Of a DNA stretch of 37,349 bases, positions 1,927 through 19,132 are shown one piece after another. The DNA is taken from positions 1 to 37,349 of the forward strand of contig JAGPCI010000002.1 in assembly GCA_018058165.1 (NCBI GenBank), written 5' to 3'. Under the pieces are notes generated by a model, which did no database searches, was not told where the DNA came from, and saw only the letters and a list, made by a program, of their open reading frames with translations. Position numbers and translations under genes: made by a program. The stretch's first letter is position 1, and each line of letters opens with the position of its first letter. This DNA is from Bacteroidia bacterium. GTDB lineage: Bacteria; Bacteroidota; Bacteroidia; UKL13-3.

Positions 1927-3918
1927 TTATTTTTTTGCTTCTGGGGCAGTAGGTGTTGTAGGGTTGCCAAGTAACCAACTAAGTGGTGTGTTACTGTTTG
2001 CTGGCGATACGCGAACATATCCTGACATTTCTTGATGTAATGCACTACAAAAATCTGTACAATACATTGGGAACACGCCTGCTTTTTCTGGAACCCATTT
2101 TAAAGTAGCAGTTTCTCCTGGCATAACTAATAATTCACCATTTCTTGCTCCTTTTACCGCAAAACCATGCGGTACATCCCAATCTTGCTCTAGGTTAGTT
2201 ACGTGGAAGTAAACTTCATCACCAACTTTTACACCTTCAATATTATCTGGGGCTAAGTGAGAGCGAATTGCTGTCATATACACATGAACTTTTTTGCCTT
2301 CGCGAACTACTTTAGTTTCATGTTCGCCTTTTGCAACATAAGGGTGATTGTTTTCAGCAATCTTAAATATTTTAACAGAGTTTGGTGCAATTAATTCTGC
2401 TGGTGCAGCTTGTGCGTAATGCGGCTCACCAATAGTAGGGAAATCTAATATTAACTGCATTTTATCACCGCTGATATCATATAACTGTGCGCTTTGAGAT
2501 AACTCTGGTCCAGTTGGTAAATATCTATCTTTGGTAATTTTGTTGTATGCTATTAAGTATTGTCCAAATGGTTTTTTACTATCGCCACCCGGAACGCATA
2601 AGTGACCTACAGAATAAAATGTTGGTACACGGTCTAATACTTTTAGGTCTTTAATATTCCATTTAACAACTTCTGATGAAACGAAGAATGAAGTGTAAGC
2701 GTTACCTTTACCATCAAACTCAGTATGCAATGGGCCTAAGCCTGGTTTTTTAACTTCACCATATAAAGCAGCTTCGTATTTTATTACATCAATACCATCA
2801 TATTTACCATCAAATTGTTTGTCGGCAATGGCTTTTTGAATTTTATCGAAGCTAAATACAGGAATTAAAGCAGCTAATTTACCACTACCTACAATGTACC
2901 CACCAGTTGGGTCTACGTCACAACCGTGTGGAGATTTAGGGCATGGAATCATGTAACATAAGTCAGAAAACTCTTTTGCATCAAGTATAAGTACTTCGGT
3001 TCTCAATTCTGATTTTGCAGAATGTGTTTTTTCGTCCCATACATTATGAATGTATTTAGCAGCAGTTTTTTTACCTCTACCTGCTTTAATATATTCTTCA
3101 GCTTTTTTCCAATTTACAGCCATAATAAAATCTTTGTCGTTTTTAGAAGCGTTAACCTCTAACAAAGTATTTGCTTGCTCTGTATTGTAGCATGAAAAGA
3201 AGAACCAACCATGTGATTTGCCTTTACCAGCGTGGCTTAAATCAAAGTTTACGCCAGGGCATTGAATTTGAAATGCAATATCCATTTCACCTTCTTTACC
3301 TACACTAATAAAGCTTAAATGGCCTTTAAAGTTTTGTTTGTAAGTGTTAATTGGCACATCACCATTCGAGTTGTCGGCTGGTACGCTAAAACGTGTTCCT
3401 GCAACTACATACTCAGTATTTTCTGTAATAAATGGTGACGAGTGGTTACCTGCACTATTTGGTATTTCAATAATCTCGGCTGTACGGAAAGTTTTTAAAT
3501 CAATACGTGCAACACGTGGTGTGTTATTGGCATTACCAAATACCCAACGGCCATCAATTTCGCCATTAGTTTGCGACATTTCTGTGTGATGCAAATCATC
3601 CCAAGGCACCATACCATGTGATGTGTTTAACATTGGTTTAGTTTCTTCGCTGTATCCCCAGCCTTTTTCTGGATCAACTGCAAATACTGGGATAACACGT
3701 AGTAAACGACCACTCGGCAATCCGTAAACGCTTAATTGGCCGCTAAATCCACCACTTACAAAGTTGTAGAATTTGTCGAGTTTACCAGGTGCGATGTATG
3801 TTTTTTGTGCAGCATCACCTGTAACCGCGTTGCTTGTATTTTTTGGTTTACAAGAAACGATAGCAGCAACGGCCATACTAGCAATTGCGCCTTTAATTAA
3901 TATACTATTCCTTTTCAT
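1927..3918 (-). CDS. nosZ: Sec-dependent (clade II) nitrous-oxide reductase NosZ
   Basis: 663 aa. The CuA motif is C-terminal (CTDFCSALHQEM). CuZ-type histidine motifs are present (DDLHHTE, KSPHGCDV, GPLHTEF, GEPHYA). There is no twin-arginine motif; the N-terminus is a Sec/lipoprotein-type signal (AAIVSC). Confidence 0.95.
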   Translation of the reverse strand: MKRNSILIKGAIASMAVAAIVSCKPKNTSNAVTGDAAQKTYIAPGKLDKFYNFVSGGFSGQLSVYGLPSGRLLRVIPVFAVDPEKGWGYSEETKPMLNTSHGMVPWDDLHHTEMSQTNGEIDGRWVFGNANNTPRVARIDLKTFRTAEIIEIPNSAGNHSSPFITENTEYVVAGTRFSVPADNSNGDVPINTYKQNFKGHLSFISVGKEGEMDIAFQIQCPGVNFDLSHAGKGKSHGWFFFSCYNTEQANTLLEVNASKNDKDFIMAVNWKKAEEYIKAGRGKKTAAKYIHNVWDEKTHSAKSELRTEVLILDAKEFSDLCYMIPCPKSPHGCDVDPTGGYIVGSGKLAALIPVFSFDKIQKAIADKQFDGKYDGIDVIKYEAALYGEVKKPGLGPLHTEFDGKGNAYTSFFVSSEVVKWNIKDLKVLDRVPTFYSVGHLCVPGGDSKKPFGQYLIAYNKITKDRYLPTGPELSQSAQLYDISGDKMQLILDFPTIGEPHYAQAAPAELIAPNSVKIFKIAENNHPYVAKGEHETKVVREGKKVHVYMTAIRSHLAPDNIEGVKVGDEVYFHVTNLEQDWDVPHGFAVKGARNGELLVMPGETATLKWVPEKAGVFPMYCTDFCSALHQEMSGYVRVSPANSNTPLSWLLGNPTTPTAPEAKK

Positions 3919-6674: not shown

Positions 6675-7163
6675 TTATTCGAAGTATTGGTTAAACATTA
6701 CAAACGATGCTTGCAATGCGTTTACAATTTGTGACGCTTCTTCTTCGTTTTTAGCATTTCCTAAATCTTTTATTAATTGCATATATGGATGTAACCATAC
6801 GTGTAATTCTTCATGCGATTGACCTTTCATGGTGCAGCTTTTGGTTAGTAAGCCTACAGTTGAGTTTAACTCTTTAGCCAGTGCAGCATAATCTTTTTTA
6901 GGTGCATTTATGTAAGTGTCTACTAGGCCTTCGCTATTACGTACATACACCATCATCTCTTTATTCACTGCCCATTTTGCACCATTGTTTAAGTTAATCT
7001 CTAGCTTTTCTGTTGCTTCATGGCTCTCCTCATGTTCTGCTGTATTACTTACTTGTTCTTGATTAGAAGCAACATCGTTTGTTGGTGTTTTTGGCTGTTG
7101 GTTGCAACTAGTAGTAATTGCTAACCCGCCCGCCAAGGCAAAAAATAATTGTAGTTTCATCAT
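6675..7163 (-). CDS. Hypothetical lipoprotein with His/Glu-rich motifs
   Basis: Lipobox AITTSC, a low-complexity linker with EHEESHE, and a C-terminal helical part with QSHEELHVWLHPYM. I recognise no family. Confidence 0.6.
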   Translation of the reverse strand: MMKLQLFFALAGGLAITTSCNQQPKTPTNDVASNQEQVSNTAEHEESHEATEKLEINLNNGAKWAVNKEMMVYVRNSEGLVDTYINAPKKDYAALAKELNSTVGLLTKSCTMKGQSHEELHVWLHPYMQLIKDLGNAKNEEEASQIVNALQASFVMFNQYFE

Positions 7164-7199
7164 TTAAATTGTGTTTAAAATAAATTAATGGGTAAGTTT

Positions 7200-7613
7200 T
7201 TAATCTGCCTCCCAAGTTACAAAGCAAGTGCTTGTTTCGTATAATTTAAGTTTTTTTAAATAAATATTTTGTGGCATTACGGGTTGTAGTTTAGCTGCCA
7301 TATCTAAAATCATTATTTCGGCAGTGGGCTCATCGGCTAACCATAATTTTTTGGTGTTAATTTGATGGGTGCTTTCCAGGTTTAAACTATTGGTTTTAAG
7401 CATAAGCGAATGGTCGTAATCATTAATAACTGCATCATTCACTATGCCTTTTAATACCTTAAAATCAATAATCATGTTATTAGTTAAGGTTGATTTTGTG
7501 CTTACAGCAACGTGTAATTCGTAACCATGGCCATGTATATTTTTGCATGCACCATCGTAATCTGAAATGGCATGGGCCGCTTCAAACCTAAATATTTTTG
7601 TGATACTAAGCAT
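7200..7613 (-). CDS. queD: 6-carboxy-5,6,7,8-tetrahydropterin synthase / 6-pyruvoyl-tetrahydropterin synthase family
   Basis: 137 aa with the motifs FRFEAAHA and CKNIHGHGYELHV (the Cys plus HxH zinc/active-site signature). Confidence 0.8.
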   Translation of the reverse strand: MLSITKIFRFEAAHAISDYDGACKNIHGHGYELHVAVSTKSTLTNNMIIDFKVLKGIVNDAVINDYDHSLMLKTNSLNLESTHQINTKKLWLADEPTAEIMILDMAAKLQPVMPQNIYLKKLKLYETSTCFVTWEAD

Positions 7614-8793
7614 TTGTTTCCCTTCTGCGTTTAACTTCTTTAGTTATTAATTCCAGCTCACGATTCATTTGGCCATTTACAGTTTTGTTTTCGTTTGCCC
7701 TGCGAATTAAATATGGAATTGCTTTTTCTATTTCGCCATATGGTAAATATTTCGACACTTCAAAACCAGCATGTGCAAGGTTAAAAGTTAGGTTATCACT
7801 CATGCCTAATAATTGCGAGAAACTAATTTTTTCTTTAGCATCTGCAATGTTTAATCTATTTACTTCTGCTATTGCATGTGTTATACTTTCTTCGTTGTGC
7901 GAAGCAATACAAAGATGGGTAGTTTGCATATTTGCTAAACAAATATCAATGGCCATATCAAAAGATTTATCTGTATCGGCTTTGGTTTTAAACACAGGAG
8001 AAGGCACACCAGCTTCTTCAGCCCTTTCGTTTTCTTTCTCGTGGTAAGCCCCTCTAACTATTTTTACACCAGCATAAAAATTGTTCTTCTTACTTAAGGC
8101 AATTAAATTATTCAGATACACTATTCTATCTGTTAAATACATTTGTAATGTGTTAAAAATAACTGCCTTTTTTGTATTGTATTTTTGCATCATTTGTTCC
8201 ACTATGTAATCGTAAATATCTTGTGTGCAACGCTCTTCTGCATCAAAATAAATGGTTATATTATGTGCGTGGGCTTCTGCGCATATTTCATCAATGGTAG
8301 TTAATAGTTGGTTAAAGCGTACCTTGTTGTCACTGCTTTTTTCATTTAACAAAAAATTGCTTCGTTTTAAAAAATCGTAGTCTTCTAATCCAGTAATTTT
8401 TATGCTAATATAGTGGCCAGGATATTTTATAGCTAATGCATTAATATTTTGCTTAATGCGTATTGCATTTTGTTTGTATCCAGCTTGGTTATTTTCACTC
8501 TCAGATACATAATCTAATACTGATTTTACCTTGTATTGCATTAAATTACCAATGGTTATAAATGCTTGATGTAAGTTTTCGCCTGCACAAAACACTTTAA
8601 ATACGGTTTGTTTAATTAAAAACTTTCCGGGTAGTTTATATTTTAAAATAAGCGCTGCACCGCCAGATAAAAACTTCACCAAAAATGGATAGTTAAATAA
8701 CTTAAATACAAAATGTGTTTTTTGTAATTGAGTAGTGGTTTTATACTTAAAAGCAAGTTCTGTTTGGTTAAAGTTAGGTATATGCGTACTCAT
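7606..8793 (-). CDS. Proline dehydrogenase family protein (monofunctional PutA-like)
   Basis: 395 aa with the motifs KIVRGAYHEKE, LGMSD and AIPYLIRRANENKTV, typical of the PRODH beta8-alpha8 barrel. Confidence 0.75.
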   Translation of the reverse strand: MSTHIPNFNQTELAFKYKTTTQLQKTHFVFKLFNYPFLVKFLSGGAALILKYKLPGKFLIKQTVFKVFCAGENLHQAFITIGNLMQYKVKSVLDYVSESENNQAGYKQNAIRIKQNINALAIKYPGHYISIKITGLEDYDFLKRSNFLLNEKSSDNKVRFNQLLTTIDEICAEAHAHNITIYFDAEERCTQDIYDYIVEQMMQKYNTKKAVIFNTLQMYLTDRIVYLNNLIALSKKNNFYAGVKIVRGAYHEKENERAEEAGVPSPVFKTKADTDKSFDMAIDICLANMQTTHLCIASHNEESITHAIAEVNRLNIADAKEKISFSQLLGMSDNLTFNLAHAGFEVSKYLPYGEIEKAIPYLIRRANENKTVNGQMNRELELITKEVKRRRETNA

Positions 8794-10163
8794 AATATGT
8801 TTGATTTGGTGTGTGATAGGTTAACTGTTGAGTTTGATTTTTTTAGATAACAAGCTGCGTAGTTATAAAGCAATGTTGCAGCTATAATTAGCAGAGCAAC
8901 TACTAATACAAAACCTGCAATAATAAATGTGGCGAAATAGGGTGTTAAATCCTGCATCATATCGTGGTAGTTACTTTGTATTACCGAGTTTTGCCAAATA
9001 CCTTTTTTTATGCCTGCAATATTTAGCGCAAGCCAAAATACCAATAAACTTATTTGGGTTGTATAAAACAACATATTTAGCCATTTATTTGCTTTATTGT
9101 AATTGGTGCAATTGTTACCTAAAAACATAAAACAAGCTGCTAATAAAATCATGCTATTAATTCCAATTGTTGTACCCATTGCATGGGCAACTGTTACATG
9201 CGTGCCATGTGTGTAAATATTTAATACCGGAATTGACATAAGTACAGCTAAACCCATATTGGCAAACACCCAAATATCCGAAGCCATTATAAATCGATAG
9301 GGGAAAAAGTGGTAGTTTTTTTTCATATCTGATACACTTTGTTTCCATTGAAAAATTATGCGTGCAAAAAATATCCATTCGGTCATGCTTACTATATATC
9401 CAATATATCTTATGTAACTATCTGTAGGAAGAGTATAGACATGATGACCCCAATTAAACATTAAATTAAACAGGCCTAAAAAGTACATACCAAAGGCAAT
9501 TTTACTAAATCCAACTTTGTTGTTGCCAGTAATTTTATCCATTAAAAAAAATGCTGTGCCATATATTAATTGATTCCACGAACCCACCAAGGAGCCATTT
9601 ACTTTCCACTGTATGGTCATGTCTAATACAAAATTATCACGGAAATAAGGGAATACCCACAGGTAGTTTTCAATAAATGTAAACATAAAAAACAACCCGC
9701 CAGTAAGCCACATCCAAACATAAACGGGCCATGTTTTTATTGATTTAACTGTTTTAATAAAGTTTATTAAATAAAGTATCCAAGCGGCTGCAATTGGTAA
9801 TGCCCAAATAGGATTAAATTCCCAGTATTCTCTTCCCCCAAAATCGTGGTGAAAATAACTATTTGCAATGCCTACTATTGCGATTAGCCATAAAGTAAGT
9901 TGTGCGGCTGCAAGTTTGTTTGATAATTTATTAGGGTTGAGTAAGTGCAATGCACTCATAACCGAACCATTTGCTGCAATAATTATCCATAATGTAACAA
10001 ACGAAACATGCAAGGGGCGTAATGCAGTAAAGCCAATTGAATTTTTTAAAAAATCGGGTTTTACGTAAACTATCGAAGCCAATAAGCCAAACACAATTCC
10101 AACTAACAACAAGCAAAGGGCCAATGCCAAAAATAATTTTCCTATGTTTGGTTTCGTGCTCAT
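8790..10163 (-). CDS. Haem-copper oxidase superfamily catalytic subunit, divergent cbb3/NOR-like
   Basis: 457 aa with about 12 TM helices. It has the CcoN/NorB-like motifs LRPLH (helix II) and FNWGHHVY (helix VII HH). The helix VI His and the helix X HxH are not present (see findings). Confidence 0.8.
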   Translation of the reverse strand: MSTKPNIGKLFLALALCLLLVGIVFGLLASIVYVKPDFLKNSIGFTALRPLHVSFVTLWIIIAANGSVMSALHLLNPNKLSNKLAAAQLTLWLIAIVGIANSYFHHDFGGREYWEFNPIWALPIAAAWILYLINFIKTVKSIKTWPVYVWMWLTGGLFFMFTFIENYLWVFPYFRDNFVLDMTIQWKVNGSLVGSWNQLIYGTAFFLMDKITGNNKVGFSKIAFGMYFLGLFNLMFNWGHHVYTLPTDSYIRYIGYIVSMTEWIFFARIIFQWKQSVSDMKKNYHFFPYRFIMASDIWVFANMGLAVLMSIPVLNIYTHGTHVTVAHAMGTTIGINSMILLAACFMFLGNNCTNYNKANKWLNMLFYTTQISLLVFWLALNIAGIKKGIWQNSVIQSNYHDMMQDLTPYFATFIIAGFVLVVALLIIAATLLYNYAACYLKKSNSTVNLSHTKSNIL

Positions 10164-10567
10164 GGTTGTTCTATCATTCCGTTATTAAACTTTTTAAACT
10201 TTCTGTAATCTGCTGTTCCGCTTTGGTTAGTTTGAATTAAAAATTCCAAAAGTGCAGTTTGTTCTTCCTCCGATAAATTAAAAGCAGGCATTGCTTTTAC
10301 GCCACTATTAATTATTCCGCTAATTACCTTATCGCCTTTAAGGCTATATATATTGGTTAAATCAGGGCCTAAATATCCACCTAAACCATAAAGTTGGTGG
10401 CAACTTTGGCAATTGTATTTTTGCCACACCAATCGTCCTTTTACGGCAAGTTCTGTATTAAAAGTTTGTGGTAGTTTTAAAGTGGGCTTATTAGTATAAA
10501 TACTAAATGAGTAAACCAAAAAGCTTAAACATAAGGCCAAAAATATATGTAGCGGTTTTATCTCCAT
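10160..10567 (-). CDS. Membrane-anchored monohaem cytochrome c (NorC/CcoO-like partner subunit)
   Basis: N-terminal TM anchor, CQSCH followed by LYGLGGYLGPDLT, and a distal Met in KAMPAF. Its stop overlaps the oxidase-like start by 4 nt. Confidence 0.8.
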   Translation of the reverse strand: MEIKPLHIFLALCLSFLVYSFSIYTNKPTLKLPQTFNTELAVKGRLVWQKYNCQSCHQLYGLGGYLGPDLTNIYSLKGDKVISGIINSGVKAMPAFNLSEEEQTALLEFLIQTNQSGTADYRKFKKFNNGMIEQP

Positions 10568-12099
10568 GCTGGCACGTTGTATTTATAACTTTTGGCGTTT
10601 GTGGTATCCTCGTTCATGTTATTTAACAAGTCTTCTATTATTACTCCTGCTACACAAGCCATGTTGTTTAGCTGCATTAGTTTAATAGAAAAATTATTAT
10701 TGTTTAGTATTGATGTAGTGAGCTGTTGTAATATTTGCATGTATTTTAAAGCGGCATGTAAGGTAATTACATCACATGTTGAGAAGCTTAAACTCATCCA
10801 TTTTTTAATTACCTGCATTTTTGGGTTTATCCAATTATAGTCTATGTTTTTTGGATGGGTAGCTGTGATAGATTTTGATTGAATAAAAGTATCAGAATTT
10901 AACAGCTCGGTTATATTTATTGCGGCTTGATTTGCAAATACTAATGCTTCGAGCAATGAGTTTGAAGCAAGCCTGTTTTTGCCATGAAGGCCAGTGCATG
11001 ACACCTCGCCAAGGGCATACAAATTGGTTAAACTTGTTTGTGCAAATTGATTAACTTCTATGCCACCGCATTGGTAATGTGCCGATGGTACAATTGGAAT
11101 TAAATCAGTTCTTAAATTATACCCTAGCGAAGTAAGTTTTTGGGTTATTGAAGGAAAATGTTGACTAAATTCTTGATGATTTAAATGCCTTAAATCTAAA
11201 TAGGCACAGGCGGTATTGGTTAATGCTAGTTGGGTATTAATTGCATTACTAACCACATCGCGTGTAGCTAATTCGCCTCGTAAATCATATTTAAATAAAA
11301 AACGACAACCAGCCTTATCAGTAATATATGCGCCAAAACCTCTAACCGCTTCAGATATTAAGAATGATGTTTGTTGTTTATTTTTAACATACAATGCAGT
11401 GGGATGAAATTGTACAAATCGCATGTGTTTTAAATTGGCACCAGCACGTTTTGCCATTGCATAACCATCGCCTGTAGCAGGCTCTGGGTTAGTGGTGTTC
11501 TCAAATAATTGTCCGCAACCACCAGTTGCCAGTACAGTAATTTTAGCATATAAAGTTTCGCAGTTTTGTGTTACCTCATCATAAACCGAGACGCCCATTA
11601 CTGCATTGTTAATGGTAATTAATTTTGCAACAAATAGGTGTGTTATTAGGTTAATATTTTTTTGTGCCTCTACTAGTTTTATTAATGTATTTGCTACTTC
11701 AAATCCTGTTTTGTCTTTATGGTGTATTACCCTTGGTTTGTTATGCCCACCTTCTAATGCAAGTGCTATATTACCTTGGTTATCTTTATCAAACACAACA
11801 CCCATATTTATTAATTCGTGAATGCTTTTAGTTGCATTTTTTATAACTAAATCTACTATGTTTTCATCACATAATCCTTTTCCACTAGCAAGGGTATCTG
11901 CAATGTGTTCTTCGTAAGAGTCTGTTAGGGTGTTTAGCACTGCTGCAATTCCACCTTGTGCATAGCTAGTATTACTTTCTAATGCGCTAGTTTTGGTAAT
12001 TACATTAATTTTGGCTTGAGGGTTTTGTTTAGCTAATTTTAAAGCTAACGATAATCCAGCAATGCCAGAACCAACAATAAGTACATCTGAGTTTCTCAT
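10558..12099 (-). CDS. nadB: L-aspartate oxidase
   Basis: FAD motif DVLIVGSGIAGLSLA, plus SYAQGGIAA, HYQCGGI and NRLASNSLLE. The ORF track extends to 12147, but the ATG at 12099 (MRNSDVLIVGSG) avoids overlap with nadA. Confidence 0.9.
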   Translation of the reverse strand: MRNSDVLIVGSGIAGLSLALKLAKQNPQAKINVITKTSALESNTSYAQGGIAAVLNTLTDSYEEHIADTLASGKGLCDENIVDLVIKNATKSIHELINMGVVFDKDNQGNIALALEGGHNKPRVIHHKDKTGFEVANTLIKLVEAQKNINLITHLFVAKLITINNAVMGVSVYDEVTQNCETLYAKITVLATGGCGQLFENTTNPEPATGDGYAMAKRAGANLKHMRFVQFHPTALYVKNKQQTSFLISEAVRGFGAYITDKAGCRFLFKYDLRGELATRDVVSNAINTQLALTNTACAYLDLRHLNHQEFSQHFPSITQKLTSLGYNLRTDLIPIVPSAHYQCGGIEVNQFAQTSLTNLYALGEVSCTGLHGKNRLASNSLLEALVFANQAAINITELLNSDTFIQSKSITATHPKNIDYNWINPKMQVIKKWMSLSFSTCDVITLHAALKYMQILQQLTTSILNNNNFSIKLMQLNNMACVAGVIIEDLLNNMNEDTTNAKSYKYNVPAWR

Positions 12100-12104
12100 C
12101 CAAA

Positions 12105-13049
12105 TTATGATAATGCTAACATTCTGTTTAAAGGAATTAAAGCACATTCAATTACATCATTTGATAAGGTAATTTCTGGTGTTTCATTTAGTAAACAATT
12201 GTATAGCTTTTCTAAGGTGTTTAATTTCATAAATGCACATTCGCTGCATGCACAAGTGTTGTCTTCTTTTGATGGAGCTGGAATCAAAATTTTGTTTGGT
12301 GCTTCCTGACTCATTTGATGTAAAATGCCTGCTTCTGTTGCAATAATAAATTCGCTTGCATCACTTTGTTTTACATAGTTTATCATTGCCGCAGTAGAGC
12401 CTACAAAGTGCGCTAAGGTTAATAAATCTGCTTCCGATTCGGGGTGAACAACCAATTTAGCCTTTGGATGTTTTTTGTATAAATCAACTAATTTGTTAAA
12501 CGAAAATGCCTCGTGAACAATGCAGGCCCCATCCCATAATACCATGTCTCTGCCAGTTTCTTTTATCAGGTATTTCCCTAAATTTCTATCTGGGGCAAAA
12601 ATAATTTTTTCGTAACTAGGTATCGATTCTATTATTTTTTTTGCATTTGATGAGGTACAAATAATATCACTTTGTGTTTTTATTTCGGCCGAACAATTAA
12701 TATAACTTACTACAATATGGTTTGGATATTGTTGTTTAAAATCGCTAAACTCTTGCGGTGTACAAGAACTTGCTAATGAGCAACCGGCTTCTAAATCGGG
12801 TAATAAAACCTTTTTATTTGGATTTAAAATTTTGGCTGTTTCGGCCATAAAATGTACACCAGCAAATACAATAATATCCGCTTTAGTTTGTGCAGCCTGT
12901 TTTGATAAACCTAAACTATCACCTACAAAGTCTGCTATATCTTGTATGGCTTCCTCTTGGTAATAATGGGCCAAAATAACCGCATTTTTTTGTTGCTTTA
13001 AACGTTTAATAGCGGTTGCATAATTAAATTTTTGCGATGCTAAAGTCAT
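12105..13049 (-). CDS. nadA: Quinolinate synthase
   Basis: 314 aa with the motifs [30 protein letters not shown] and PDRNLG, and conserved cluster cysteines. Confidence 0.9.
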
Positions 13050-13052
13050 AAA

Positions 13053-14864
13053 TTATGTTGCTTTTACAGTAATAGGAGTTAATTGCATGTTGTGTAAATC
13101 TTCTTCAAGTTGATTTAGTTCAATACGCATACCTTTAAATAATTCTTCAGCCTGATTGCCCATGTTGTCTATTAAGCCACGGTAATAATCTATTCCTGAA
13201 AGTAAATTTTCTTTAAACTTTTCTAAGTAAGTTTCTTTACGCTGTACTATATTTAACGTTATCTTTTTTTGTTCGTTTGTTAAATAGTTCATGTAAAGTT
13301 TTAATTCGTTTATAAACAAATTAGGGCGATGCACTTTATTTAAAATGTTAATTCTGCCATAAATATGATCTACCATTTGCTGTAAAGTAAATGTGCCCGA
13401 AAAGAAAGCTAAGTTTGGCCCAGGGCAAATTGTAACTGCACCAAAACTATGCTTAGGTGTTATACCGTTTACCATTAATGCCGGTTCTGTTAAACCTTCA
13501 CATAAGCAATCTTTTTCTTTAACAATAGTTGCCTTTGCTTCATATTCTTCGGGGCTGGCACAAGTTTCTTTTAATTGTTTTAATTTAAAATATTGGTATT
13601 TTACAGATGCGGTGCAAATGGGTTCTTTGGTAAACTCCGTATCAAATTGTAAGTACTTTTTTAGGCATGGGCTACCAGATTTTCCTTTTTCTATCCTGCT
13701 TTTACGTAAGGTTTCTGCACTACTTTTTCTAAAATTATTAAAGGGTACTCCAAGCGGAGAAGCGTTACTTAAATAATAATCTTCGGGCACAGCGCTAGCT
13801 AAATCATTTAGTGTTTTGGTATCTACATTAGTAACTTCTGGTACCAATAAAAACGGGCTACCCCAGCCACCGCTATTTAAGCGATAGTATTTTAATAAGA
13901 AATTATTTTCGTGTACATTACCTATGCCACCTTGTGCAGTAATTTTTAAATTGGGGTTTGTGGCTAACTTGTTCTTGCCCGAAGCGGTAAGTGCATCATT
14001 ACACATATCGTATAAAGTTTGATATAACTCTGCACGTTTGTTTTTAAACTCTTCTAAAATTGGTCCCATTAATATGCCATCTGTTGCAAATGCATGTCCA
14101 CCACAATTTAATCCAGACTCAACCCTAAACTCCGAAACCCACAATCCTTTTTTTGCCAAAAATTTTCCTTGAATTAAAGCCGACCTGTAATCGCTTACTT
14201 TTAATACAATTTTCTTTTTTGATAGCCCATTTACTTCAGGATAAAAATCCTTAAAGTGTTCGCAATAGCCATAAATTTTTGGATTGAACCCTGCTGAGAA
14301 CACAACCGAAGAACTCAAATTGCTTTGCGCAAAACCGCGTAATGCTGATGATGCATCAGATTGTTCGTGTGGTAAAGGATTTCCTGCCTTGTCAAAAATG
14401 GGCTTGTCTACTTTGGTCATAATATTAACTTCAATAGCCCCAATACTCCAACTTTCTTTTAAGTGTTTTTCTGCTTTATCTCGTTCGTCAGCCGTTATAT
14501 TTGGTAAAGTATCATACAGCTGCTTTAGGTCATTATCGTTAGGCAGCATACTAAAATATTGCTTCACAATTGGGCTCGAAAATGGTTGTTGGCGCAAATC
14601 TTCAACTTGTTTGTTGATAATTTCATCCATTGTATTTAAGTAGGTTGAAATTCGCAAAGCGCGATAATCATCATCTGAAGTTGTTATTTCTGAATAAGGC
14701 AAACTATACAAAGTGCAATAATGCTTGCGCATTTGTTCTAGCAATTCATCTTCAACAATAGAAATGGCTGAACTTATTCCAAATTTTGCTACCTTAATGG
14801 GTGTATCTACAGTAAAGCCAATACCCATAACTGGTATATGAAATTTGTGAGCTTGTGCTGTCAT
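13053..14864 (-). CDS. Conserved hypothetical protein, possibly an FMN-type TIM-barrel oxidoreductase fold, with a Cys-rich and coiled-coil C-terminus
   Basis: A 603-aa uninterrupted ORF. The motifs VESGLNCGGHAF and ITAQGGIG resemble nitronate-monooxygenase/IMPDH-like barrels. There are 3-nt gaps to rfbD upstream and nadA downstream. Confidence 0.6.
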   Translation of the reverse strand: MTAQAHKFHIPVMGIGFTVDTPIKVAKFGISSAISIVEDELLEQMRKHYCTLYSLPYSEITTSDDDYRALRISTYLNTMDEIINKQVEDLRQQPFSSPIVKQYFSMLPNDNDLKQLYDTLPNITADERDKAEKHLKESWSIGAIEVNIMTKVDKPIFDKAGNPLPHEQSDASSALRGFAQSNLSSSVVFSAGFNPKIYGYCEHFKDFYPEVNGLSKKKIVLKVSDYRSALIQGKFLAKKGLWVSEFRVESGLNCGGHAFATDGILMGPILEEFKNKRAELYQTLYDMCNDALTASGKNKLATNPNLKITAQGGIGNVHENNFLLKYYRLNSGGWGSPFLLVPEVTNVDTKTLNDLASAVPEDYYLSNASPLGVPFNNFRKSSAETLRKSRIEKGKSGSPCLKKYLQFDTEFTKEPICTASVKYQYFKLKQLKETCASPEEYEAKATIVKEKDCLCEGLTEPALMVNGITPKHSFGAVTICPGPNLAFFSGTFTLQQMVDHIYGRINILNKVHRPNLFINELKLYMNYLTNEQKKITLNIVQRKETYLEKFKENLLSGIDYYRGLIDNMGNQAEELFKGMRIELNQLEEDLHNMQLTPITVKAT

Positions 14865-14867
14865 GAT

Positions 14868-15731
14868 TTAGTTTTGTTGTTTTAAGTAATTTTGTAATGC
14901 ATCTTTCCAATGTGGTAAGCTTGCGATACCCCTGTTTTTAAGAGAGGCGTTTTCTAATACTGAATATTTTGGACGAGGTGTTTTTGAAGGAAAAAATGAT
15001 GAATCAACTTTATTTACCTCAACTTTTGTATTGGTTAATTGAAATATTGTGGATGCAAACTCGTGCCAACTACATGAACCTTCCGATGTTAAATGTACTA
15101 TTCCGCTTAATTCATTTTTTATTAAAGCGGGCAATAATTTAGCAATATCTGCAGTTGCAGTTGGCGATACAAACTCATCACCAACTACATTTAAACTTGG
15201 CCTTTCATTGGCTAGCTTTAGCATAAGTTGTATAAAGTTTAAACCGTTTTTTGCTCTGCAAGGGTTTACACCATATAAGGCCGAAACACGCAAAATTAAA
15301 GCTGCTTGATTTTCGGCTAAAATTGCATTTTCGCCTGCGTATTTTGTTTGTCCATATACATTAAGTGGGTTTGGTTTATCTAGCTCATTGTAAGGCGAGT
15401 TTTTTTCACCATCAAAAACATAATCGGTACTAAAATGTACAAATTTAATTTTTAAGTAATTACACATGCGTGCTATAAAAGCAGGTGCTGTAGCGTTAAT
15501 ATTTAATGCTTCCTTAGGGTTTTCTTCGCATAAATCTACATTATGGTATGCCGCTGTATTTATAATAACATCGGGCCTATGTTGAGCTAAAAATCCTTTT
15601 ACCTGCATTAGGTTTTTAATATCTAAATCAGCTCGGGCAGGTGTTATTGTTTCAATATTTTGTGAAGTGAAAAAGTTGGTAATATCACTCCCCAATTGTC
15701 CTTGTGCACCCAGTATTATCGCCTTCTTCAT
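14868..15731 (-). CDS. rfbD: dTDP-4-dehydrorhamnose reductase
   Basis: 287 aa with the Rossmann motif ILGAQGQLG, catalytic YGQTKYAGE and the STDYVFDG motif. Confidence 0.85.
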   Translation of the reverse strand: MKKAIILGAQGQLGSDITNFFTSQNIETITPARADLDIKNLMQVKGFLAQHRPDVIINTAAYHNVDLCEENPKEALNINATAPAFIARMCNYLKIKFVHFSTDYVFDGEKNSPYNELDKPNPLNVYGQTKYAGENAILAENQAALILRVSALYGVNPCRAKNGLNFIQLMLKLANERPSLNVVGDEFVSPTATADIAKLLPALIKNELSGIVHLTSEGSCSWHEFASTIFQLTNTKVEVNKVDSSFFPSKTPRPKYSVLENASLKNRGIASLPHWKDALQNYLKQQN

Positions 15732-18377: not shown

Positions 18378-18391
18378 TTGACCTGCGTCAA
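18378..18391 (-). promoter_or_regulatory. FNR/CRP-type box TTGAC-CTGC-GTCAA (perfect palindrome)
   Basis: It lies in the 74-95 nt gap between the Crp/Fnr gene and the GT2 gene. It is 26 nt from a TTTG (CAAA at 18348-18351 on plus), the same spacing as at the mbnP promoter. Confidence 0.55.
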
Positions 18392-18424: not shown

Positions 18425-19132
18425 TTAATCCTCGAGTTTCGCAATTGTAAATAATCGCTCGTAATCAACAATTTTTATGTATTTTTTGAAGAGTAAAATT
18501 ACTTTTTCATCGTCCCATTCGCGTAAAACCCTAACTGCAGTTTCTGTAGCCATTCCTGCAATACTGGCCATATCTTCTCGGGTTAATACAATGTTTATAA
18601 AGTTTTCGTTGTTTTTGCCAAACGATTTTTCAAGTAATAATAATGTTTCTGCTAATCGTGCTCGTGTGTCTTTTTGAATAAAGCTAACCGATTTATTCTC
18701 GGCCAAGCTTAAATCTTCGGCAAACCTCGACATAATTTCCATAGTAAACTTTATGTTCGATTTTATTAAATCAAATATGCGCTCTTTAGGAATAAAACAT
18801 ACAATCGAGTCTTCAATTGCAACACCAGAGGCAATGTAGTGTCCATCACCCAAAAGCCCCCTGTAGCCAATTAATTCACCATCTTTAGCTAGTCGTAAAA
18901 TTTGGGTACTTCCATCGTGCAATGTTTTGTAAAGTTTAATTTTGCCTTGGTGCACACAATGTAAACCCTTTGCTAAATCACCTTCATGAAAAATTAATTG
19001 ATTCTTTTTAACCCGGTGCGTTAGCTTATAGTCGTTTAAATCACTTAACTCATCTTTTTTTAAAGTGCAAAATGATGACAGGGCCATGTTTTGGCAGGTA
19101 GTGCAATCTATATTTTTTACAGGTTTTTTCAA
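18425..19132 (-). CDS. Crp/Fnr family transcriptional regulator with an N-terminal cysteine motif
   Basis: cNMP-binding-type beta-roll (IFHEGDLAKGLHCVHQGKIKLYK) and a C-terminal HTH with an FNR-like recognition helix (ATETAVRVLRE). N-terminal CTTCQNMALSSFC. The start codon is TTG at 19132-19130. Confidence 0.85.
   Translation of the reverse strand: MKKPVKNIDCTTCQNMALSSFCTLKKDELSDLNDYKLTHRVKKNQLIFHEGDLAKGLHCVHQGKIKLYKTLHDGSTQILRLAKDGELIGYRGLLGDGHYIASGVAIEDSIVCFIPKERIFDLIKSNIKFTMEIMSRFAEDLSLAENKSVSFIQKDTRARLAETLLLLEKSFGKNNENFINIVLTREDMASIAGMATETAVRVLREWDDEKVILLFKKYIKIVDYERLFTIAKLED

What the first reader, a model, noticed from the sequence alone, without database searches (positions are those of the whole stretch)
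13053..14864. Uncharacterised 603-aa protein wedged between rfbD and nadA
I recognise no family name for it. The N-terminus (HIPVMGIGFTVDTPIKVAKFGISS) and the motifs VESGLNCGGHAF and ITAQGGIG resemble FMN-dependent TIM-barrel enzymes (nitronate monooxygenase, IMPDH or GltS-type). A region with scattered cysteines follows (SPCLKKY, EPICTAS, ETCASP, KDCLCEG, TICPGP) that could bind a metal or an Fe-S cluster. The protein ends in a helical, coiled-coil-like tail. The 3-nt spacing to nadA suggests translational coupling with de novo NAD synthesis. It could be an accessory redox partner or an alternative aspartate or iminoaspartate-handling enzyme.
Basis: inference. Interest (0 to 1): 0.6.

Follow-up and report, generated by a model that had tools for sequence, protein, structure and literature searches.

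The report
Low-oxygen FabX-like flavoenzyme, new subfamily
The unnamed 603-residue protein is a real and widespread enzyme, a distant enlarged relative of the FMN/iron-sulfur fatty-acid dehydrogenase FabX, and it sits beside the NAD genes because both belong to a low-oxygen gene set, not because it makes NAD.

Summary
The ORF is real: window 13053-14864 on the minus strand, 603 aa, with 3-nt gaps to rmlD and to nadA. It matches no Pfam, NCBIfam or PDB sequence. It has more than 8000 homologues and occurs as a single copy in 144 of 400 complete Bacteroidota genomes.

Structure prediction and profile comparison place it in the nitronate-monooxygenase (NMO) FMN TIM-barrel superfamily, closest to FabX. 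The FMN-binding residues, the E-x-GGH catalytic histidine loop and four of its conserved cysteines align with Bacteroidales FabX-like proteins (hhalign 96%).

An Fnr/Crp-type palindrome precedes the gene in 48 of 81 loci. Recurring neighbours are cbb3/NOR-like oxidases, nos, hemN, RIC and Rrf2. nadA is adjacent in only about 8 of 83 loci. This genome also carries the oxygen-dependent kynurenine-route gene, so nadAB here reads as the oxygen-independent alternative.

Twelve fusion clusters join the protein to a CysJ-like diflavin reductase.

Best reading (about 0.3 for the function): an oxygen-independent FabX/UfaA-like acyl-chain dehydrogenase for unsaturated fatty acids under hypoxia. The substrate is untested.

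The scan had already flagged this family in at least six other windows.

The parts
13053..14864 (-). Gene X: 603-aa cytoplasmic protein, a new subfamily of the NMO/FabX FMN TIM-barrel superfamily
   Evidence: ORF and translation. No Pfam, NCBIfam or PDB sequence hit. Family size. Fold assignment.
14751..14849 (-). Barrel strands beta1-beta2 (residues 6-38), carrying the HIPVMG...GISS motif. This is equivalent to the PIIQGGM...AGGLG start of NMO/FabK proteins.
   Evidence: AF2 secondary structure. N-termini of NMO ORFs for comparison. Conserved columns.
14454..14750 (-). Helical insertion of about 100 residues (39-137) between beta2 and beta3, absent from FabX, FabK and NMO proteins
   Evidence: AF2 model: helices 39-52, 67-91, 98-137, pLDDT about 90. 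The hhalign match to FabX-like proteins starts only at residue 127.
13830..14453 (-). Barrel strands beta3-beta8 (residues 138-345), with N147 (NIMTK), K222, the QGGIG phosphate loop (311-315) and GWGSPF
   Evidence: hhalign to FabX-like proteins at 96.1% and to NMO proteins at 80%. Invariant columns.
14094..14120 (-). Catalytic loop E249-S-G-L-N-C-G-G-H257, equivalent to FabX E175-GPLSGG-H182
   Evidence: Aligned to EGPLAGGH of FabX-like proteins, which in turn aligns to EGPLSGGH of FabX. FabX residue roles come from PMC8626469. E249, G256 and H257 are invariant.
13329..13829 (-). Cys-rich small subdomain (residues 346-512) with C400, C417, C453, C455 and C480; the probable Fe-S site
   Evidence: When folded alone it reaches pLDDT 91. 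Residues 330-504 superpose on FabX 237-363, which holds the cluster ligands C300/304/308/320 (123 aa aligned, rmsd 2.7 A, Z 5.7). Foldseek probability 0.99. Four Cys align with Cys of FabX-like proteins. Conservation.
13056..13328 (-). C-terminal antiparallel three-helix bundle (residues 513-603); variable in sequence, with invariant E520
   Evidence: AF2 model. Only generic helical-bundle matches, Z about 10. Weak compositional hits to apolipoprotein A-I, E 0.02-0.05.
12105..13049 (-). nadA, quinolinate synthase; 3 nt downstream of X and the only nadA found in this genome
10558..12147 (-). nadB, L-aspartate oxidase
14868..15731 (-). rmlD, 3 nt upstream of X. It belongs to a GT2-rmlC-epimerase-rmlD block that lies between the promoter and X only in this lineage (window, L004, L021).
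   Evidence: In L063 the same box lies directly upstream of X.
18378..18391 (.). Fnr-type palindrome TTGACCTGCGTCAA heading the minus-strand array that contains X
   Evidence: One of only three TGAY-N4-RTCA sites in the window. The identical box lies 31 nt upstream of X in L063.
18425..19132 (-). Crp/Fnr-family regulator next to the array
   Evidence: cNMP_binding plus HTH_Crp_2 domains; best NCBIfam hit is Fnr, below its cut-off.

Best explanation
X is a cytoplasmic flavoenzyme of the nitronate-monooxygenase (NMO) superfamily, on the FabX branch. Its parts are an FMN-binding (beta/alpha)8 barrel with the conserved Asn147, Glu249, His257 and QGG residues, and a Cys-rich small subdomain that most likely holds an Fe-S cluster. 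It also carries two lineage-specific additions: a 100-residue helical insert and a C-terminal three-helix bundle. It is transcribed from Fnr/Crp-type (low-oxygen or NO-responsive) promoters, and it exchanges electrons with a flavodoxin-type partner, which in some bacteria is fused to it as a CysJ-like NADPH diflavin reductase. Proposed mechanism (inferred, about 0.3): like H. pylori FabX and gonococcal UfaA/NGO1024, it dehydrogenates and isomerises an acyl-ACP (or otherwise acts on the C=C bond of an acyl chain) at the FMN/His site. The electrons would pass through the Fe-S cluster to a protein carrier instead of to O2. That would supply unsaturated fatty acids when the O2-dependent desaturases of these aerobes cannot work. 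Its position next to nadA-nadB reflects shared low-oxygen regulation, not a shared pathway. My odds for the separate steps: superfamily and fold 0.9; low-oxygen regulon 0.8; Fe-S cluster 0.6; acyl-chain/UFA function 0.3.
For: Fold. The full-length AF2 model matches PfaD (Z 15.8), MlnA enoyl reductase (15.6) and FabX (15.5, 286 residues aligned); FAS enoyl reductase, PA1024, FabK and IMPDH follow at Z 13-14. The C-terminal half folded alone (pLDDT 91) again hits FabX first, and NMO-family clusters in the ESM Atlas.

Sequence. hhalign of the family against eight Bacteroidales FabX-like proteins gives 96.1%, E 3e-9, over 270 columns. It aligns N147, E249, H257, QGG, ASPxGxP and C400/C417/C453/C455. 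The best PDB match of those FabX-like proteins is FabX at 5.6e-23, against 2e-11 for FabK. Against ordinary NMO/FabK proteins, hhalign gives only 80% over 60 columns.

FabX biochemistry is taken from PMC8626469.

Regulation. An exact TGAY-N4-RTCA site lies within 250 nt upstream in 48 of 81 loci, against 87 of 609 for other genes. TTTG starts exactly 27 nt after the box in 16 of 52 boxes. Recurring neighbours are COX1-family oxidases (15 loci), Crp-type regulators (14+5), Rrf2 (11), hemN (6), RIC (6), nos, Usp and POR.

Precedent. NGO1024 is induced 8-10-fold anaerobically (PMC3032703). It is reported essential for anaerobic UFA synthesis with an unknown electron acceptor (Isabella & Clark 2011, as cited in PMC11300592).

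Distribution. X is in 144 and the FabX-like protein in 85 of the same 400 genomes, and no genome has both. X-bearing genomes carry 2-6 FA_desaturase genes and no FabA above cut-off; the FabX-like genome tested has no desaturase.

Electron partner and lipid hints. Twelve clusters fuse X to Flavodoxin_1, FAD_binding_1 and NAD_binding_1 domains. One fusion joins X to a PlsC-type acyltransferase.
Against: No fab, ACP or lipid gene recurs among the neighbours in 83 loci. The structural Z-scores for FabX, PfaD, enoyl reductases, PA1024 and IMPDH lie within about 2 units of each other, so the fold alone does not pick a substrate. The Cys spacing (C-x16-C-x35-C-x-C-x24-C) differs from the C-x3-C-x3-C-x11-C of FabX, and no cofactor has been shown. 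A CysJ-type fusion normally feeds electrons INTO the partner, which suits a reductase better than a dehydrogenase. The mutual exclusion with FabX-like proteins rests on two or three lineages (f24, f28 and one f36 genome whose gene carries an internal TAA), so it amounts to few independent events. In the sample, 171 of 400 genomes have neither protein. X is nearly twice the size of FabX.
Confidence: 0.4

Rival explanations
1. X is a reductase rather than a dehydrogenase. Electrons from NADPH (through a diflavin reductase) or from reduced flavodoxin/ferredoxin would enter through the Fe-S cluster and FMN. They would then reduce a small acceptor, such as an enoyl or enoate compound, a quinone (as in PA1024), or a nitro/nitronate or other nitrogen-oxide-derived compound. 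In that role X would be an electron sink or a detoxifier within the denitrification/nitrosative-stress regulon.
For: Twelve CysJ-like fusions exist, and this architecture usually delivers electrons to the fused catalytic domain. One of these fusions lies beside NarH- and NarJ-like genes. Neighbours include 2-oxoacid:ferredoxin oxidoreductase (4-5 loci), RIC/YtfE (6), Rrf2 (11), NOR-like oxidases and nos genes. FabK, PfaD, enoyl-reductase domains and the NADH:quinone reductase PA1024 score as well as FabX in structure.
Against: At sequence level the nearest recognisable relatives are FabX-like, not FabK or NMO. CPR-type modules can also accept electrons from Fe-S enzymes, as in pyruvate:NADP+ oxidoreductase (my own knowledge). 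No candidate acceptor pathway is conserved nearby.
Confidence: 0.25
2. X works in de novo NAD synthesis with NadA and NadB. It could be a redox partner that reoxidises NadB or maintains the NadA cluster without oxygen, or it could handle iminoaspartate.
For: The order X-nadA-nadB, with gaps of 3-20 nt, is kept in the window and in L004, L005, L020, L021, L023, L034 and L063, although the X proteins there are only 51-64% identical to the window's. X is predicted to be a flavin and Fe-S protein.
Against: nadA is near X in only 9 of 83 loci and nadB in 7. Most X genes stand alone behind their own box. In other lineages the adjacent gene is PTPS/QueD-like, tryptophanase, hemN or cbb3 genes instead. 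The genome has 3-hydroxyanthranilate dioxygenase, so nadAB in a low-oxygen array is explained without X.
Confidence: 0.07
3. X replaces some other oxygen-dependent step outside lipid metabolism. One possibility is pterin or 7-deazapurine metabolism, suggested by the PTPS/QueD-like gene immediately downstream. Another is an unrecognised step linked to the NorB-like enzyme, proline dehydrogenase and tryptophanase genes of the same island.
For: A PTPS/QueD-like gene follows X with a gap of 0-14 nt, or a 4-nt overlap, in 5 loci (9-10 loci carry the gene within 10 kb), in Hymenobacteraceae and Cyclobacteriaceae. The gene set X, nadAB, tnaA-like, cyt c, NorB-like, ProDH and PTPS recurs in several orders.
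Against: These neighbours are each present in at most 12% of loci. All of them can be read as members of one low-oxygen regulon. No chemistry links an NMO-type barrel to pterins.
Confidence: 0.1

Closest known systems
FabX (HP0773, H. pylori; PDB 7E1Q) and UfaA/NGO1024 (N. gonorrhoeae): FMN/[4Fe-4S] decanoyl-ACP dehydrogenase/isomerase of the NMO family
   Same: Both have an FMN TIM barrel with the same Asn, Glu and GGH-His residues and the same GGI phosphate loop. Both share the ED-x-x-x-SP-x-G-x-P motif. In both, a Cys-bearing small subdomain follows strand beta8. Low-oxygen induction has been shown for NGO1024 (PMC3032703), and X sits behind Fnr-type boxes.
   Different: X has 603 residues against about 363. 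It has a 100-residue helical insert after beta2 and a three-helix tail. Its Cys spacing is different. It gets no Pfam NMO hit. It forms recurrent CysJ-like fusions. Its substrate and cofactors are untested.
Bacteroidales FabX-like proteins (about 436 aa; for example L121:1168-2475, probably the family called FabX in PMC11300592)
   Same: They are the nearest relatives detectable by profile (hhalign 96%, 270 columns). Four Cys align, including the C-L-C pair.
   Different: They still match Pfam NMO (E 1.8e-24). They lack the insert and the tail and carry an extra C-W-T-C pair. They are found in other genomes than X: 81 of 86 in f24 and none together with X.
FabK, PfaD, trans-AT polyketide enoyl reductases and the type I FAS enoyl-reductase domain (FMN-dependent enoyl-ACP reductases)
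   Same: Same barrel and lid architecture, Z 13.4-15.8.
   Different: These use NAD(P)H directly at the flavin and have no Cys cluster. The sequence-profile link is weak (80% over 60 columns).
Nitronate monooxygenase / NADH:quinone reductase PA1024
   Same: Same superfamily fold and catalytic His motif.
   Different: About 330-360 aa, no Fe-S subdomain, and oxygen- or quinone-dependent chemistry on small substrates.

Membership tests
NMO superfamily (FMN-dependent TIM barrels: NMO, FabK, FabX, PfaD) | (beta/alpha)8 barrel with a lid subdomain after beta8 | tested here: met
   The AF2 model has eight strands. Foldseek probability 1.0. VIA Z 13-16 with 230-290 residues aligned. ESM Atlas NMO clusters match the lid.
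NMO superfamily (FMN-dependent TIM barrels: NMO, FabK, FabX, PfaD) | FMN phosphate loop (A/Q)GGI followed by G-x-x-F...E, and Asn on beta3 | tested here: met
   hhalign aligns QGGIG/GWGSPF..PE with AAGGI/GSRF..ES. N147, Q311, G312 and G313 are conserved.
NMO superfamily (FMN-dependent TIM barrels: NMO, FabK, FabX, PfaD) | Catalytic His in the E-x-GGH loop | tested here: met
   E249...G255-G256-H257 are invariant or nearly invariant and align to EGPLAGGH, which matches FabX E175...H182.
NMO superfamily (FMN-dependent TIM barrels: NMO, FabK, FabX, PfaD) | Match to Pfam PF03060 above its gathering score | tested here: not met
   P0001 has no hit. Of 47 diverse members, only P0203 reaches 21.8 bits, below the 28-bit cut-off. 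X is therefore a superfamily relative outside the current model.
NMO superfamily (FMN-dependent TIM barrels: NMO, FabK, FabX, PfaD) | Bound FMN | not testable with these tools
   Requires purified protein.
FabX/UfaA | Closer to FabX than to FabK or NMO | tested here: met
   The link is transitive. X against FabX-like proteins: 96% over 270 columns. FabX-like against FabX: 5.6e-23, compared with 2e-11 for FabK. X against NMO/FabK proteins: only 80% over 60 columns.
FabX/UfaA | Four Cys in the small subdomain ligating a [4Fe-4S] cluster within 14 A of FMN | tested here: inconclusive
   Five conserved Cys lie in the structurally equivalent subdomain. Their spacing differs from FabX C300/304/308/320. 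No coordinates or cofactor data were available.
FabX/UfaA | Acts on decanoyl-ACP; ACP docking on a basic helix (R164 and the chink) | not testable with these tools
   The only hint is a conserved A237-K238-K239-G240 patch at the position corresponding to FabX R164; this is an inference.
FabX/UfaA | Compact single-module protein of about 360 aa | tested here: not met
   X has 603 aa, with a helical insert (39-137) and a three-helix tail (513-603).
   IMPDH chains align at Z about 13.5-13.9, level with many NMO chains. No sequence-level hit to either family was found.
De novo NAD pathway component | Conserved gene linkage with nadA/nadB | tested here: not met
   nadA is within 10 kb in 9 of 83 loci and nadB in 7; nadA is adjacent in about 7-8.

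The most novel reading that the evidence does not exclude
X defines a previously unrecognised, oxygen-independent route to unsaturated fatty acids in aerobic and facultative Bacteroidota, and also in Ignavibacteriota, Calditrichota, Latescibacterota and some Planctomycetota. In this reading a FabX-derived FMN/Fe-S dehydrogenase passes its electrons to a flavodoxin-type carrier or to the anaerobic respiratory chain instead of to O2, and it is switched on by Fnr-type regulators together with cbb3/NOR/Nos respiration, HemN and NadAB.
Probability: 0.3. Interest if true: 0.75.

Novelty: new variant of a known kind. Interest (0 to 1): 0.6.

Why it matters
About a third of the sampled complete Bacteroidota genomes carry this highly conserved gene, yet it has no family model and is annotated only as 'hypothetical'. 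Three things follow from placing it on the FabX branch and in the Fnr-type low-oxygen regulon. First, the protein gets a testable function. Second, the mixed-looking operon is explained: it collects oxygen-independent substitutes and low-oxygen respiration genes. Third, it addresses an open question raised by gonococcal UfaA, namely which electron acceptor lets FabX-type enzymes work without oxygen. The natural fusions to a diflavin reductase point to a flavodoxin-type partner. If the function holds, it would explain how desaturase-dependent aerobes keep membranes fluid during denitrification or micro-oxia.

Tried and rejected
1. Sequence searches of X alone against Pfam, NCBIfam and PDB, and a 47-member profile against PDB, gave nothing except compositional hits of the helical tail to apolipoprotein A-I.

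2. The strict FNR consensus TTGAY-N4-RTCAA with at most one mismatch was not enriched (7 of 81 loci against a 5.8% background). A mistaken N6 spacing found nothing. The core TGAY-N4-RTCA was enriched.

3. I tested the idea that X is an oxygen-independent protoporphyrinogen oxidase and rejected it. Two complete X-bearing genomes (G083, G156) lack HemY, HemJ and HemG and also lack ferrochelatase, so X does not depend on haem synthesis.

4. Predicted X-NadA complex: score 0.11 against a mark of 0.32. The tool gives no verdict, so this is evidence neither for nor against binding.

5. The contexts of distant members and of the fusion proteins (P0131, P0144, P0183, P0198, P0203, P0279, P0282) were mostly uninformative.

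6. The VIA wide search with the C-terminal model was swamped by generic three-helix bundles.

8. Two papers could not be read (Isabella & Clark 2011; Bi et al. 2016). Their content is cited only as reported in PMC11300592.
Full report
OBSERVATION. The ORF is real but lies on the minus strand: window 14864 down to 13053, 603 aa, kept as P0001. The stop of rmlD, the start and stop of X, and the start of nadA are separated by 3 nt on each side. The flanking genes are confirmed as rmlD (TIGR01214), nadA (TIGR00550) and nadB (TIGR00551). Downstream lie a cytochrome c, a NorB-like COX1-family protein, proline dehydrogenase and a PTPS/QueD-like gene. Upstream lie an epimerase, rmlC, a GT2 and a Crp/Fnr regulator. 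The nosZ/L/D, MbnP and MbnH genes are at the window's low end.

A LARGE UNNAMED FAMILY. X has no Pfam, NCBIfam or PDB sequence match. It nevertheless has more than 8000 homologues at 55-78% identity, all labelled hypothetical, and 999 representatives at 50% clustering. They include Bacteroidota, Ignavibacteria, Planctomycetales, Calditrichaceae and Latescibacterota. In 400 complete Bacteroidota genomes, X is present as a single copy in 144; one family (f24) has it in 0 of 86 genomes. Conservation is high, with 67% mean column identity over 25 members. Across 47 diverse members the invariant residues include N147, M149, K222, D225, E245, R247, E249, G256, H257, S369, P370, C400, C417, C455 and E520. 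C254, C453 and C480 are at least 90% conserved.

FOLD. The first AF2 model (pLDDT 72) shows a complete (beta/alpha)8 barrel with a helical insert at residues 39-137. The region after beta8 was modelled with low confidence. Foldseek matches FabX, PfaD, trans-AT enoyl reductases, NMO, FabK and IMPDH at probability 1.0. On re-alignment with VIA, PfaD scores Z 15.8, MlnA enoyl reductase 15.6 and FabX 15.5 (286 of 366 residues aligned). FAS enoyl-reductase domains, PA1024, FabK and IMPDH score 13-14. Residues 330-603, folded separately with a 47-sequence alignment, reach pLDDT 91. Within that model, residues 330-504 again match FabX best (Foldseek probability 0.99). They superpose on FabX 237-363 with 123 residues aligned at rmsd 2.7 A. 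That FabX segment carries the [4Fe-4S] ligands C300, C304, C308 and C320 (PMC8626469). The ESM Atlas gives NMO-family clusters for the same part. Residues 513-603 form a generic antiparallel three-helix bundle.

SEQUENCE-LEVEL LINK. A profile of X against ordinary NMO/FabK proteins from relatives gives only 80% probability over the GGI...F..E region. The bridge came from a genome of family f24, which lacks X. Its only NMO-type ORF (436 aa, L121) has FabX as its best PDB match by far: 5.6e-23, against 2e-11 for FabK. hhalign of the X family against eight such FabX-like proteins gives 96.1% probability, E 3e-9, over 270 columns (X residues 127-459). It aligns the following:
- NIMTK with NCMEK
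- E249-SGLNCGG-H257 with EGPLAGGH, which corresponds to FabX E175...H182
- QGGIG with AGGIF
- ASPLGVPF with SPTGYPM
- C400, C417, C453 and C455 with four invariant Cys of the FabX-like proteins
. X is therefore a distant, enlarged member of the FabX branch. Its FMN-binding and catalytic residues are conserved. A metal or Fe-S site is likely but unproven, and its Cys spacing differs from that of H. pylori FabX.

ELECTRON PARTNER. Twelve 90%-identity clusters of about 1167-aa proteins fuse X to Flavodoxin_1, FAD_binding_1 and NAD_binding_1 domains, the CysJ/CPR type. So X exchanges electrons with a flavodoxin-type FMN domain. The direction is not settled. Such modules usually donate electrons, but they can also accept them from Fe-S enzymes (my own knowledge: pyruvate:NADP+ oxidoreductase). 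Single fusions to a PlsC-type acyltransferase and to a TetR regulator also exist.

GENOMIC CONTEXT. I clustered all ORFs within 10 kb of X in 83 loci. The recurring neighbours, with the number of loci, are:
- COX1-family oxidases, either NorB-like or cbb3 CcoNO: 15
- response-regulator/Crp fusions: 14
- hybrid kinases: 14
- Rrf2 regulators: 11
- NosF: 10
- PTPS/QueD-like: 9-10
- nadA: 8-9
- tryptophanase-type lyase: 8
- Usp: 8
- nadB: 6-7
- ProDH: 6
- HemN, above the TIGR00538 cut-off: 6
- RIC/YtfE: 6
- NosZ: 5
- 2-oxoacid:ferredoxin oxidoreductase: 4-5
- CcoP, CcoI and CcoG
. No fab or lipid gene recurs. In most loci X stands alone with 100-250 nt upstream of it.

REGULATION. An exact TGAY-N4-RTCA palindrome lies within 250 nt upstream of X in 48 of 81 loci from at least 17 named genera. 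The figure for other genes in the same loci is 87 of 609 (Fisher p about 1e-17, but related genomes are not independent). In 16 of 52 boxes, TTTG starts exactly 27 nt after the box core, and in 3 more at 26 nt. No other offset exceeds 3. In the window, the only such boxes are at 3586, 6399 and 18378; the last one heads the array that contains X. In L063 the identical box TTGACCTGCGTCAA lies 31 nt upstream of X itself. That suggests the GT2-rml block was inserted between promoter and X in the window's lineage.

WHY nadAB IS HERE. The genome has one nadA, which is this one (the MAG is 81% complete). It also has two 3-hydroxyanthranilate dioxygenase genes, the oxygen-dependent kynurenine route. 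So nadAB in an Fnr-type array reads as the oxygen-independent route to quinolinate. This parallels HemN and the tryptophanase found in the same kind of island elsewhere. The order X-nadA-nadB is kept in seven other loci, but that is about 10% of loci, so it does not indicate a shared pathway.

FUNCTION. The closest characterised relatives introduce the double bond of unsaturated fatty acids. FabX is an FMN/[4Fe-4S] decanoyl-ACP dehydrogenase/isomerase that uses O2 in vitro (PMC8626469). Its gonococcal homologue NGO1024 is induced 8-10-fold anaerobically (PMC3032703). NGO1024 is reported to be essential for anaerobic UFA synthesis with an unknown acceptor (as cited in PMC11300592). Several results here fit an analogous role for X. 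In the same 400 genomes, the FabX-like protein is present in 85 (f24 81/86, f28 3/3, and one f36 genome whose copy has an internal TAA) and X in 144, with no overlap. The four X-bearing genomes tested (G000, G218, G062, G083) have 2-6 FA_desaturase genes; these four plus G156 have no FabA above cut-off, while the FabX-like genome tested has no desaturase. These tests are confounded by phylogeny and are small. The lack of lipid neighbours and the CysJ fusions leave a reductase role open. I therefore put the UFA reading at about 0.3. I put the superfamily assignment at 0.9 and low-oxygen regulation at 0.8.

REJECTED OR UNRESOLVED. A role as an anaerobic protoporphyrinogen oxidase is excluded, because X occurs in genomes without ferrochelatase. 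The predicted X-NadA complex gave no verdict. Expression data could not be obtained.

VERDICT. X is a new, Pfam-less variant of the FabX/NMO kind, widespread and tied to low-oxygen life. Other first-stage notes of this scan flagged the same family in at least six other genomes: next to nadAB, next to nos, next to tryptophanase, and behind an Fnr-type box.

Noticed in passing
window 10558-13049; own genome G000:C220:16153-16608 and C17:3148-3600: The genome carries both routes to quinolinate. nadA-nadB lie in the Fnr-type array, and two 3-hydroxyanthranilate 3,4-dioxygenase genes (oxygen-dependent kynurenine route) lie elsewhere. This suggests the NAD precursor route is switched by oxygen.
   Followed up: partly
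window 6675-14864; L004, L020, L021, L023, L034, L055, L062, L070: A recurring 'low-oxygen island' combines X, nadA, nadB, a tryptophanase-type lyase, cytochrome c, a NorB-like oxidase, proline dehydrogenase and a PTPS/QueD-like gene. Gene order varies, and the island often sits beside nosZ and MbnP/MbnH. It occurs across Chitinophagales, Flavobacteriales and Cytophagales.
   Followed up: partly
L026:11790-12200, L049, L051, L062:11795-12244, L070 (and window 7200-7613): A PTPS/QueD-like gene follows X within 0-14 nt, or overlaps it by 4 nt, in Hymenobacteraceae and Cyclobacteriaceae. Its scores sit at or just below the QueD cut-off. The reason for this tight pairing is unexplained.
   Followed up: partly
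L063:1107-1120 versus window 18378-18391: The identical palindrome TTGACCTGCGTCAA lies directly upstream of X in L063. In the window (and in L004 and L021) it lies upstream of GT2-rmlC-epimerase-rmlD. The sugar genes therefore look like an insertion between the promoter and X.
   Followed up: partly
upstream regions of X in L004-L083: There is a fixed spacing between the TGAY-N4-RTCA core and TTTG: 27 nt in 16 of 52 boxes. This is a usable signature for predicting the Fnr/Crp-type regulon of Bacteroidota.
   Followed up: yes
G083 and G156 (complete genomes of families f31 and f39): No ferrochelatase, HemY, HemJ or HemG was found, although both genomes carry X. They are probably haem auxotrophs.
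   Followed up: partly
L133 (G064:C10:40579-41841): This is the only FabX-like gene found outside families f24 and f28. It lies in family f36, whose other sampled members carry X, and it has an in-frame TAA. It may be a decaying or recently acquired copy.
   Followed up: no
L110:7107-10052 (P0144); P0133; L109:1655-6545: Rare architectures exist: X fused to a PlsC-type acyltransferase, TetR fused to X, and an X-CysJ fusion placed directly after NarH-like and NarJ-like genes.
   Followed up: partly
L041, L053, L054, L068, L080: In Sphingobacteriaceae, X is embedded in the cbb3 oxidase cluster (CcoNO, CcoP, CcoI, CcoG) together with hemN, a D-2-hydroxyacid dehydrogenase, Usp and a receiver-Crp fusion regulator.
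   Followed up: partly
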